A stretch of 64,000 nt of DNA from the human T2T-CHM13v2.0 reference genome, Homo sapiens (GCF_009914755.1 NC_060933.1), one strand, 5' to 3'. Shown: positions 59,595 through 60,939, counted from the stretch's first letter. The notes: a model not told the origin generated them from the sequence alone. Made by a program: numbers and translations.

Positions 59595-60069
59595 AATGCA
59601 CACAGAACAATAAACATTTTCTAAAAATACCTACAAACAAAAAGATGCATATCAAACATATTAGGAAGGTTGCACATGGGAAGACGGGGAATAGAAATGG
59701 GGGGTGGGAATGAAAGAAAATAAATGAGAGAGGGACTTTGTATGGATCAATGATAATAACTCAATCCTCTATGTCTTTGACAAAGAAGGAGGAGGAAGAA
59801 AAAAAAAGTGGGATAAAGGATCAGAAAGGGAGGAAAATAGAAGAAATTAGAGTATGACTCCAGGGTAGACCTGTTTTATTGTTGCTGGGTTGGTTGGTTG
59901 GTTTGTTTGTTGTATTTTTAGTAGAGACGGGGTTTTGCCATGTTGGCCAGGCTGGTCTTGAACTCCTAGCCTCAAGTGATCAACCCGCCTCAGCCTCCCA
60001 GAGTGCTGGGATTATAGGTGTGAGCCACCACGTCCAGCCCCCACACTGCGTCTGGCCTCTGTGGTAGAC
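59595..60069 (-). other. HSD17B3 intron-2 segment (unique + AluSz left arm + unique + old L1) corresponding to the 3' module of gibbon LAVA
   Basis: Order and sequence (AG|GTCTACC..GTGGGGGCTGGACGTGG..Alu..CAAC repeats..CTGGAGTCATACTC..) match the recalled LAVA 3' end; LAVA origin from HSD17B3 intron 2 is recalled from the literature. Confidence 0.8.
59911..60039 (-). mobile_element. Alu left monomer (AluSz-like)
   Basis: Left-arm Alu sequence only, followed by a (CAAA/CAAC)n tail. Confidence 0.85.
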
Positions 60070-60939
60070 CTATATTTTGATGGAAGTAGTATATATGTCA
60101 TTTGCTACTTATTAAGTAAAGTATACTAATTCTAACTTTTACAATAGCCATGATAGAAAATTTAAGTTTCTTGTCTATAAAAGCTTATTTACTTTACAGC
60201 AGCCTTTAGCTATTCTAGTTTATATTTTAGCTAAGGCTACCTTTAGCTTTATCAATTAATAAGACCAGAATCGCATACATTCTGACAAAATAGTTTTATA
60301 TTTTTATGTTAAATAGTTAAAGAAAACTTTATTCCAAACTTCAAAAAAAGCAAGCTGATGATTGCTTGAGTTTTTAAAAATTAATATCACCCTAGAATAT
60401 TTTCTAATAAGACTGCTTGACCTCATCTGACACCCTTAGGCAGGTAACTTTGCTGTTACCAAATCTTTGTTTAACAATTCTCAGCCAGTGAAGGTGCAGA
60501 CAGCTCACGGCCAGTAAGGTTGGAAACAGAGGAGTTGTTGGGACATTATAGCTTGACAGAGAAGCTGACCTCCAGGTGACATGGTCAATAGCCCTTAGAA
60601 AGTCAGCCCACTGGGTACCTAACTCAGCAATATTATTTTGCATTTCTTTTTAGACTAACTATATAAATCCCTATTGCTTAAATGCTGTTCACTCAGATCT
60701 TTTGTCTTCTTGCTTAGATCCTTTGTTACTAAGTCAATATAAAACTTTAACAACTGCTAACATATGTCTTTGAGAGTTGTGCTCTTACAACACTGAATGT
60801 GTAATGTTGTTTGATCCTTTGAGTTATTTGGCTAAATGGCCACAACAGTTATACTATAATCCTAATGTCTATAAGATTTCAGAAATAATGTAATAAACAT
60901 ACTACCGTGCTCTACTAAAGACAATATCAAAAGAAGTTT

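What the first reader, a model, noticed from the sequence alone, without database searches (positions are those of the whole stretch)
59595..60071. Likely donor locus of the gibbon LAVA retrotransposon 3' module, with its cryptic splice acceptor intact
Seen: read in the HSD17B3 sense (minus), this intron-2 segment is ...tcaaaatatAG|GTCTACCACAGAGGCCAGACGCAGTGTGGGGGCTGGACGTGG, then an AluSz left arm (60039-59911), a CAAC/CAAA tail, a pyrimidine-rich unique stretch and a T-rich L1-like piece ending near 59597. GGTAGACCT occurs at both 59864-59872 and 60063-60071, giving two AG|GTCTACC acceptor-like sites (possibly an old TSD). Known (recalled, not looked up): the gibbon-specific composite retrotransposon LAVA (L1-AluS-VNTR-Alu-like) took its unique-AluSz-unique-L1ME5 3' part from HSD17B3 intron 2, proposed via splicing from an SVA VNTR donor. 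Inference: the AG at 60070-60071 is the capture junction, and testis transcription of HSD17B3 gave the opportunity. The same acceptor may still yield a cryptic exon or SVA-fusion RNA in human testis.
Basis: partly seen in the sequence, partly recalled or inferred. Interest (0 to 1): 0.82.

Follow-up and report, generated by a model that had tools for sequence, protein, structure and literature searches.

The report
Known LAVA donor locus, human fossils
This piece of a human steroid-enzyme gene intron is the already published source of the tail end of the gibbon "LAVA" jumping gene, and the human genome also holds six old copies of that tail joined to jumping-gene repeats at the same splice-like junction.

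Summary
The sequence is as described. The identification is not new. Carbone 2012 (PMC3606032) named this human chr9 locus as the U1-AluSz6-U2-L1ME5 source of LAVA's 3' end. Meyer 2016 (PMC5174737) placed it in HSD17B3 intron 2, in sense, and proposed splicing from an SVA VNTR.

The two AGGTCTACC words are the target-site duplication of an Alu left-arm insertion.

The human T2T genome gave an equivalent test. Six further copies of the module exist (chr3, chr5, chr13, three on chr9). Each matches window 60071 to 59613 and nothing beyond. Each is fused at its 5' edge to SVA-type VNTR units (…CTGGGAG·GTCTACC…) and ends in an A-rich tail. The junction fits a GT-AG splice between a VNTR donor, CTGGGAG|GTGAGG, and the intronic tatAG|GTCTACC.

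The fused piece rides antisense inside a 3.1-kb chimeric retrocopy that inserted four times. Substitution divergence places the fusion near or before the gibbon/great-ape split.

The papers I could read call LAVA gibbon-restricted and do not describe these VNTR fusions. Carbone 2012 mentions only "six copies" in hg19.

The locus is known. The human fossils are the part worth following up.

The parts
60070..60071 (-). AG dinucleotide of the candidate cryptic 3' splice site (tatAG|GTCTACC). Homology of all six human VNTR-fused copies starts at 60071.
   Evidence: pyrimidine content 10/17 at -20..-4
60063..60071 (-). First copy of the 9-bp direct repeat AGGTCTACC (GGTAGACCT on +). It is the 5' target-site duplication of the Alu insertion and forms the first 9 nt of 'U1'.
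   Evidence: retained in all six copies
60040..60062 (-). Rest of U1. It includes a 17-nt stretch that weakly resembles the Alu head (10 of 17 identical).
59922..60039 (-). Alu left arm (7SL-derived), 3'-truncated at the A-rich linker.
   Evidence: Rfam RF00017 59922-60038, E 8.8e-13, below gathering; genome-wide Alu-only matches to query 33-165; 32 Alu-like matches elsewhere in the window
59873..59921 (-). Degenerate A-rich / (CAAC, CAAA)n tail of the Alu piece.
59864..59872 (-). Second copy of AGGTCTACC: the 3' target-site duplication and the first 9 nt of 'U2'. As an acceptor it is poor (6/17 pyrimidines).
59613..59863 (-). Pyrimidine-rich unique stretch plus T-rich L1-like piece (U2 + 'L1ME5' of the literature). 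59613 is the last base shared with the six human copies, which then continue with an A-rich tail containing AATAAA.
   Evidence: 7 of 7 genome matches are this locus and the six copies
59591..59612 (-). About 22 further bases that the published 479-481-bp human interval would include if it starts at 60071. They are not present in the human VNTR-fused copies.
   Evidence: inference from lengths given in PMC5174737 and PMC3606032; exact hg19-to-T2T mapping not testable here

Best explanation
Window ~59591/59613-60071 (minus strand, HSD17B3 sense) is the human orthologue of the published LAVA 3' progenitor locus.

Anatomy. An old Alu left arm with a degenerate A-rich tail was inserted into unique/L1-like intron sequence and made a 9-bp target-site duplication, AGGTCTACC. 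The upstream copy of that duplication, read with its flank, forms tatAG|GTCTACC, a weak but canonical 3' splice site.

Mechanism (inferred). RNA from a VNTR-bearing composite element (SVA or SVA2 type) was spliced from a VNTR unit of the form CTGGGAG|GTGAGG to this AG, while intron 2 was being transcribed in sense. The chimeric polyadenylated RNA was then copied into the genome by L1. The AG seen at the fusion point would then come from the VNTR exon end, not from the intron.

Products. By the literature, the gibbon LAVA family. Shown here, one VNTR-module-A-tail insertion in the human lineage. It survives as six copies because it was carried antisense inside a 3.1-kb chimeric transcript that was itself retrocopied four times and then segmentally duplicated on chr9.

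The locus today is an intronic fossil with no demonstrated function.
For: Shown:
- Sequence and repeat anatomy.
- Location in intron 2, in sense (hub annotation: the last exon in the window, 50236-50311, is exon 3 of 11 on the minus strand).
- Published identity of the locus (PMC3606032; PMC5174737).
- Six T2T copies on chr13, chr5, chr3 and chr9 (three) match 60071 to 59613 at 89.7-91.8% over 464-468 aligned columns. No intron flank is shared. A search with the unique 251-bp part found exactly these 7 loci (7 of 7 candidates scored).
- All six read ...GTCTGGGAG·GTCTACC..., preceded by 3-6 units of a 37-bp repeat. That repeat matches long tandem arrays on many chromosomes at 85-92% (2357 candidates, 40 scored, 232 matches).
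- All six end ...GAAAATGTT followed by AAATAAAAAAA.
- VNTR units of the form CTGGGAG|GTGAGG occur naturally: 14 of 26 units in array L035 and 1 of 19 in L036. A GT-AG splice therefore reproduces the junction exactly.
- The copy was taken long ago. At 60019, 60015 and 59992 the copies keep the majority Alu base while the intron has changed. At 59964, 59924, 59921 and 59920, and in a 7-bp deletion, the copies are derived (against 32 other Alus).
- A review states that LAVA and PVA acquired their 3' domains by splicing (PMC4859970, passage).
Against: - No LAVA or gibbon sequence could be examined, so identity of LAVA's junction with the human junction is inferred.
- Meyer 2016 reports AT, not AG, next to U1 in all gibbons and invokes a lost T-to-G mutation. 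If gibbons truly lack the AG at the position of 60071-60070, the no-mutation reading fails for present-day gibbons.
- The 2-nt AG overlap means sequence alone cannot separate splicing from a DNA-level join at GGG|AGGTC.
- The acceptor is weak (10/17 pyrimidines, A-rich just before the AG).
- No canonical AATAAA lies upstream of 59613 in the intron (read), so how the 3' end formed is unexplained.
- The human copies stop ~22 nt short of the published 479-481-bp interval.
- No target-site duplication of the VNTR-module insertion itself was found. Its 5' flank (an LTR-like piece) and its 3' flank are not contiguous in the one paralogue that lacks it (chr2:88.77 Mb).
- No VNTR donor lies in cis in the present human gene.
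Confidence: 0.75

Rival explanations
1. The human VNTR-module fusion and gibbon LAVA are products of two separate captures. The same VNTR donor type and the same weak acceptor were used independently in the great-ape and gibbon lineages.
For: - Parallel exon capture by splicing is documented for SVA_F1/MAST2 and chimpanzee pt_SVA_D6/STK40 (PMC6139936, passages).
- The human copies end at 59613, whereas the published locus interval is 479-481 bp.
- The literature dates the oldest LAVA subfamilies at 17-18 My, 'very close' to the split (PMC5174737). It finds no full LAVA outside gibbons (PMC3606032).
Against: - Two independent hits on one weak cryptic acceptor (10/17 pyrimidines) from a mobile donor are less parsimonious than one.
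- Non-CpG divergence of the copies from the intron is 3.7-6.3% (n = 424-428). The four independent retrocopies differ by 2.0-4.0% (n = 2312). These values allow a fusion at or before the gibbon split (calibration recalled, not computed).
Confidence: 0.4
2. DNA-level assembly (Meyer 2016, Model A). A 3'-truncated VNTR-bearing element retrotransposed precisely in front of AGGTCTACC at the HSD17B3 locus. That allele acted as master copy and was later lost.
For: The model is proposed in PMC5174737. The junction can equally be written GGG|AGGTCTACC.
Against: - It needs an insertion at one exact base and then loss of the allele from every lineage.
- The breakpoint falls in the VNTR unit exactly before GT and in the intron exactly after AG, which a random join would rarely do.
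- The site upstream (…ccatcaaaatat) shows no insertion scar in human.
Confidence: 0.15
3. Meyer 2016 Model B taken literally. The acceptor was a transient AG created by a T-to-G change in the AT immediately 5' of U1 (window 60073-60072 if U1 starts at AGGTC) and later lost by drift.
For: Stated in PMC5174737. Human also has AT at 60073-60072.
Against: - An existing AG two bases downstream does the job without any mutation.
- With the acceptor at the mutated AT, the VNTR exon would have to end ...CTGGG. The next VNTR bases are then AG, AA or AT, not GT, so the donor would be non-canonical.
Confidence: 0.05
4. Reverse direction: the intron segment is itself a copy of a VNTR-module element rather than the donor.
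For: Polarised Alu sites are split, with 3 derived in the intron and 4 plus a deletion derived in the copies. They do not by themselves give direction.
Against: - The intron copy has no VNTR, no A-tail at 59613 and continuous flanks. The other six have VNTR at one edge and an A-tail at the other.
- The literature reports orthologous loci in great apes, macaque and marmoset (PMC5174737; PMC3606032).
Confidence: 0.02

Closest known systems
LAVA 3' Progenitor Locus (Carbone et al. 2012; Meyer et al. 2016)
   Same: Same gene, intron 2, sense orientation. Same module order: short spacer, 3'-truncated Alu, spacer, L1-like piece. Published human interval of 479-481 bp against 459-481 bp here.
   Different: Nothing essential; this is that locus. 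The papers count U1 and U2 as 'unique' spacers and say the locus has no TSDs. Here the first 9 nt of U1 and of U2 are the two copies of the Alu's own target-site duplication. Meyer 2016 looks for the acceptor in the AT next to U1 rather than in the AG at 60071-60070.
Gibbon LAVA composite retrotransposon (CT-rich, Alu-like, VNTR, U1-AluSz-U2-L1ME5, poly-A)
   Same: The six human copies have VNTR units fused directly to the same module, in the same orientation, ending in an A-tail that contains AATAAA. [quoted passage not shown]
   Different: The human copies have only 3-6 VNTR units and no CT-rich or Alu-like 5' part (5'-truncated or never present). They have no TSD of their own. They were multiplied as passengers of another transcript, not by their own activity. 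They end at 59613. Sequence comparison with LAVA was not possible.
SVA_F1 (MAST2 exon 1) and chimpanzee pt_SVA_D6 (STK40 exon 1); gibbon PVA and FVA
   Same: Host-gene sequence joined to an SVA-type element at a splice junction and then retrotransposed (PMC6139936; PMC4432496 background).
   Different: In SVA_F1 and pt_SVA_D6 a host exon is spliced onto the 5' side, using an SVA acceptor. Here the VNTR supplies the donor and a cryptic intronic acceptor supplies a new 3' end, as reported for LAVA, PVA and FVA.
SVA2 (VNTR plus a unique 3' sequence; present in macaque and gibbon)
   Same: A VNTR followed by non-SVA 3' sequence, and older than SVA (PMC4432496).
   Different: The dominant SVA2 units are given as 39-40 bp, whereas the units in the human copies are 37 bp.

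Membership tests
Published LAVA 3' progenitor locus | Lies in HSD17B3 intron 2, in the gene's transcriptional orientation | tested here: met
   Hub annotation: minus-strand gene. The nine exons in the window are exons 11 to 3, the last at 50236-50311. The locus lies at 59.6-60.07 kb, upstream of exon 3. The module reads on the minus strand.
Published LAVA 3' progenitor locus | Module order: spacer, 3'-truncated AluS (+), spacer, L1ME5 fragment | tested here: inconclusive
   The Alu is confirmed and the order of the parts is visible. 'L1ME5' could not be named because no repeat library was available; that part has no other relatives in the genome search.
Published LAVA 3' progenitor locus | Coordinates hg19 chr9:99026506-99026986 / 99,026,502-99,026,980 | not testable with these tools
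   No hg19-to-T2T mapping is available. Only the length (479-481 bp against 60071-59591) and the context agree.
Published LAVA 3' progenitor locus | High identity to the LAVA consensus 3' of the VNTR, starting at the U1 boundary | not testable with these tools
   No LAVA sequence was held. The supplements that carry it (Carbone 2012; Wacholder 2014 File S1) were not read, because the supplement reader closed.
LAVA element (applied to the six human copies) | SVA-type VNTR directly fused to U1-Alu-U2-L1-like module | tested here: met
LAVA element (applied to the six human copies) | 5' CT-rich hexamer region and Alu-like region | tested here: not met
   The VNTR (3-6 units) abuts an unrelated LTR-like sequence. 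No hexamer run or Alu-like part lies upstream.
LAVA element (applied to the six human copies) | Poly-A tail and flanking target-site duplication | tested here: inconclusive
   An A-rich tail containing AATAAA is present in 6 of 6 copies. No TSD of the VNTR-module piece was found. Its two flanks are not contiguous in the chr2 paralogue that lacks it.
Alu retro-insertion | 7SL-derived body, A-rich tail, short direct repeats at both ends | tested here: met
   RF00017 match with E 8.8e-13, below gathering. Tail seen. A 9-bp repeat brackets body plus tail (35 of 5000 shuffles). The 5' repeat sits 23 nt before the Alu head, so extra bases lie in between.
Functional 3' splice site | AG preceded by a polypyrimidine tract and branch point, with use shown in RNA | tested here: inconclusive
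   AG is present. Pyrimidines are 10/17 at -20..-4, at the bottom of the real-acceptor range of 10-15/17 and above the mean of 8.1/17 for all 956 intronic AGs. The branch point was not scored and no RNA data were available.

The most novel reading that the evidence does not exclude
The VNTR-to-HSD17B3-intron fusion that defines LAVA's 3' half is not gibbon-specific. It arose in, or before, the common ancestor of gibbons and great apes. One 5'-truncated copy was trapped antisense in a chimeric transcript and survives in human as six fossils on chr3, chr5, chr13 and chr9. LAVA would then be the gibbon expansion of an older 'VNTR-LA' lineage. Its birth needs no lost allele or lost point mutation at the HSD17B3 locus, because the existing tatAG|GTCTACC acceptor and a CTGGGAG|GT VNTR donor are sufficient.
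Probability: 0.4. Interest if true: 0.65.

Novelty: already known. Interest (0 to 1): 0.45.

Why it matters
The locus call itself adds nothing to Carbone 2012 and Meyer 2016. Two points do matter.

1. How LAVA was assembled is still described as unresolved. Meyer 2016 offers two models, and both need an allele that has since vanished. Reading the acceptor as the existing AG, with the fusion's AG supplied by the VNTR exon end, removes the need for any lost mutation.

2. Papers describe LAVA as restricted to gibbons. The human genome nevertheless carries VNTR-fused copies of the same module with the same junction. This turns 'when and how often did this capture happen' into a direct comparison of shared derived sites and orthologous insertions across ape assemblies.

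Tried and rejected
- Ianc et al. 2014, the paper that by my recollection of its abstract reports splicing for all four VNTR composite families, is not held. Damert 2009 is not held either.
- Supplement look-ups: Meyer 2016 had 2 files of 159 characters in all, with no occurrence of the motifs, and one file was not searched. The LAVA alignments in Wacholder 2014 File S1 and the consensus in Carbone 2012's supplement therefore remain unseen. They could settle the one-event versus two-event question.
- A full-text search for a 19-nt string of the junction found 0 papers.
- I tried to decide whether Meyer's 'AT' is window 60073-60072 or replaces the AG, using the published U1 lengths (24 nt, 28 bp), interval lengths and recalled hg19 gene bounds. 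All readings stayed consistent with both options, so I dropped it.
- Pfam on the 47-aa translation of the retrocopy's first exon-like part gave 0 families. The name LSP1 rests on recall plus a 94% match at chr11:1972625-1972767.
- One search used the wrong strand coordinates and searched the U1-Alu half of the chr5 copy instead of its VNTR. It returned the same seven loci and was repeated correctly.
- I looked for a VNTR donor in cis: none in the 64-kb window or in 120 kb upstream through SLC35D2.
- I considered the second AG|GTCTACC (59872) as an alternative junction. Rejected: none of the six copies starts there, and it has 6/17 pyrimidines.

Full report
**Observation.** After it come an Alu left arm, a CAAC/CAAA-rich tail, a second AGGTCTACC, a pyrimidine-rich stretch and a T-rich end.

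- The Alu call has two independent supports. Rfam gives a 7SL-type match at 59922-60038 on the minus strand (RF00017, 54.9 bits, below the gathering score of 70, E 8.8e-13). In the human genome search, 44 of 51 listed matches cover only query bases ~28-201.
- GGTAGACCT occurs twice in 64 kb, against 0.50 expected; 8 of 100 shuffles give at least two.
- A sharper test shuffled the zones just before the Alu head and just after its tail. Only 35 of 5000 shuffles produced a shared 9-mer.
- I read the two words as the target-site duplication of the Alu piece. The first 9 nt of the 'unique' spacers U1 and U2 of the LAVA literature are then the two halves of that duplication.
- A 17-nt stretch of U1 resembles the Alu head only weakly (10 of 17).

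**What is already in print.**

- Carbone et al. 2012 (PMC3606032; passages and section 14 read) named human chr9:99,026,502-99,026,980 (hg19) as a copy of the U1-AluSz6-U2-L1ME5 combination. They found orthologues in other primates and suggested that an SVA part was added just 5' of U1.
- Meyer et al. 2016 (PMC5174737; discussion, Fig. 5 legend and introduction passages read) call it the 'LAVA 3' Progenitor Locus'. They place it in HSD17B3 intron 2 in the gene's orientation and offer two models: precise insertion (A), or trans-splicing from an SVA VNTR donor (B).
- Meyer et al. state that the two bases next to U1 are AT in all gibbons, and they postulate a T-to-G mutation that was later lost.
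- A review says LAVA and PVA acquired their 3' domains by splicing (PMC4859970, passage).
- Ianc et al. 2014, which I recall as the source of that statement, is not held.

**The test that could not be run, and its substitute.** No LAVA or gibbon sequence is available here, so the proposed alignment to the LAVA consensus was impossible. The human T2T assembly is searchable, and it gave an unexpected equivalent.

- Besides the locus itself, six places match query 1-459 of 477 at 90-92%. They are chr13:24228229-24228681, chr5:29034242-29034702, chr3:75439221-75439677, and chr9:42409160-42409616, 47592938-47593390 and 77276804-77277260.
- Against window 56000-63000, each shares only 60071 to 59613 (464-468 columns, 89.7-91.8%) plus short Alu pieces. 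No intron flank is shared.
- A search with the unique 251-bp part returned exactly these seven loci, with 7 of 7 candidates scored.
[quoted passage not shown] Meyer 2016 speaks of a single ancestral copy.

**What the six copies are.** All six are preceded directly by 3-6 units of a 37-bp GC-rich repeat and read ...GTCTGGGAG·GTCTACC... at the joint.

- That repeat matches long tandem arrays on many chromosomes at 85-92% (2357 candidates, 40 scored, 232 matches). I take these arrays to be SVA VNTRs; the name is recalled.
- All six end ...GAAAATGTT at window 59613 and continue with AAATAAAAAAA.
- They are therefore VNTR-U1-Alu-U2-L1-like-A-tail pieces, which is the 3' half of the LAVA architecture. 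They lack any CT-rich or Alu-like 5' part.

**The junction.** Homology to the intron starts at 60071, the A of AG. In ordinary VNTR arrays the unit variant CTGGGAG|GTGAGG is common: 14 of 26 units in L035 and 1 of 19 in L036.

- A canonical GT-AG splice from such a unit to tatAG|GTCTACC gives exactly the observed CTGGGAG·GTCTACC.
- The AG of the product then comes from the VNTR exon, and the intron contributes from G 60069 onwards.
- It also suggests why Meyer et al. saw AT. If U1 is counted from AGGTC, the two bases before it are AT in human too. I could not confirm this without gibbon sequence. The alternative is that gibbons have AT where human has AG, which would make the gibbon state a later loss.
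- Sequence alone cannot exclude a DNA-level join at GGG|AGGTC.
- The acceptor is weak. It has 10 of 17 pyrimidines at -20..-4, against 10-15 for the nine real HSD17B3 acceptors in the window and a mean of 8.1 for all 956 intronic AGs. The second AG|GTCTACC has 6 of 17.

**How the copies spread.** The six copies share a ~3.1-kb unit. Read in the sense of the VNTR and module, the unit consists of:

1. T15-18;
2. an LTR-like piece in reverse orientation (I recognise it as the 3' part of HERV-H LTR7, recalled and not tested), with AATAAA about 17 nt before the A-run on the other strand;
3. the VNTR units;
4. the module;
5. its A-tail;
6. ~2 kb of other sequence.

The flanks outside this unit differ between chr13, chr5, chr3 and chr9.

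- Short direct repeats bracket the unit at chr13 (about 13 nt), chr9 (10 nt) and chr3 (about 11 nt); at chr5 the repeat is unclear.
- The three chr9 copies share alpha-satellite flanks.
- So a polyadenylated ~3.1-kb RNA, antisense to the VNTR-module piece, was retrocopied four times, and one insertion was later duplicated on chr9.

That RNA is chimeric.

- Bases 79-222 match chr11:1972625-1972767 at 94%. I believe this is an LSP1 exon, from recall; Pfam gave nothing on 47 aa.
- Bases 213-294 match chr2:36912676-36912757 at 100%.
- Bases 296-2008 match chr2:88773464-88775193 at 90%.
- The chr2:88.77 Mb paralogue lacks the VNTR-module and the LTR part, and its homology stops exactly at the A-tail side.
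- No TSD of the VNTR-module piece itself was seen. It may have been captured at a rearrangement junction, which is inference.

**Age.** Substitutions between the intron and the copies are 4.9-7.7% overall and 3.7-6.3% at non-CpG columns (n = 424-428). The chr3 value is inflated by a local misalignment.

- The four independent retrocopies differ by 2.0-4.0% at 2312 ungapped non-CpG columns.
- Both lineages have changed since the copy was taken. At 60019, 60015 and 59992 the copies keep the majority Alu base and the intron is derived. At 59964, 59924, 59921 and 59920, and in a 7-bp deletion, the copies are derived.
- Against recalled genome-wide divergences (human-orangutan about 3%, human-gibbon 4-5%, human-macaque about 6.5%, somewhat less at non-CpG sites), the fusion falls near or before the gibbon/great-ape split, and the retrocopy burst somewhat later. 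The sample is small and the calibration is recalled, so this is a rough placement.

**Meaning.** Two readings remain.

- One ancient VNTR-module fusion, of which LAVA is the gibbon expansion and the human copies are a fossil (my estimate 0.4 as a novel, unreported case).
- Two independent uses of the same donor type and the same acceptor.

Either way the acceptor reading gains support from the human lineage itself.

The papers I could read describe LAVA as restricted to gibbons: PMC4432496 background, PMC3606032 abstract, PMC5753468 and PMC8382927. Searches for HSD17B3 with LAVA or VNTR, for LSP1P with SVA and for SVA_A with AluSz6 and L1ME5 found no description of VNTR-fused human copies. Ianc 2014 and the supplements were not seen, so I cannot say it is absent from print.

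- Transcription of intron 2 in the right cells is inferred. HSD17B3 is, by established knowledge, a Leydig-cell gene, and Leydig cells are somatic. The annotated SLC35D2-HSD17B3 read-through RNA (hub table) is another way the intron could be transcribed in sense.
- A present-day SVA-fusion RNA has no donor in cis. No VNTR unit lies in the window or in the 120 kb upstream.
- No RNA data could be consulted.

**Verdict.** The acceptor detail is plausible and newly supported. The VNTR-fused human copies are the item worth a specialist's follow-up.

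Noticed in passing
L009-L014 (T2T chr13:24223500-24233499, chr5:29029500-29039499, chr9:47588000-47597999, chr3:75434500-75444499, chr9:42404500-42414499, chr9:77272000-77281999): A ~3.1-kb chimeric retrocopy family with four independent insertions and six copies. Each has a poly-A following an LTR-borne AATAAA and flanking direct repeats. 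Its 5' part matches an exon at chr11:1972625-1972767 (94%), which I recall as LSP1, so these are probably the annotated LSP1 pseudogenes (name recalled, not checked).
   Followed up: partly
L011, L013, L014 (chr9 pericentromeric copies): The chr9 copies sit inside 171-bp tandem arrays (alpha-satellite-like; TRF period 171, 16-25 copies on each side). The target-site duplication CTTTTGTCTA lies within a satellite monomer. The 42.4-Mb and 77.3-Mb copies differ by only 0.7% at non-CpG sites, so that duplication is recent.
   Followed up: partly
L015 (T2T chr2:88767500-88777499), around locus base 5964: A paralogue of 1.7 kb of the retrocopy unit that lacks the VNTR-module and the LTR part. Homology ends exactly at the A-tail side of the VNTR-module piece, which suggests the piece sits at a rearrangement junction rather than in a simple insertion site.
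   Followed up: partly
L017 (T2T chr2:36912676-36912757): An 82-bp stretch 100% identical to bases 213-294 of the chr3 retrocopy unit. It is presumably an exon of another gene captured in the chimeric transcript. The gene was not identified.
   Followed up: no
window 59016-59075 (-): Rfam match to the mir-3135 precursor family (47.9 bits, below the gathering score of 80, E 1.3e-07). It lies within a stretch NCBI masks as repeat (58778-59134), so it is probably a repeat-derived hairpin look-alike.
   Followed up: no
window 60044-60060 (-): A 17-nt stretch of U1 just before the Alu head resembles the Alu head itself (10 of 17 identical; 4 of the 7 differences are transitions). It may be a partial duplication made at insertion. 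The evidence is weak.
   Followed up: partly
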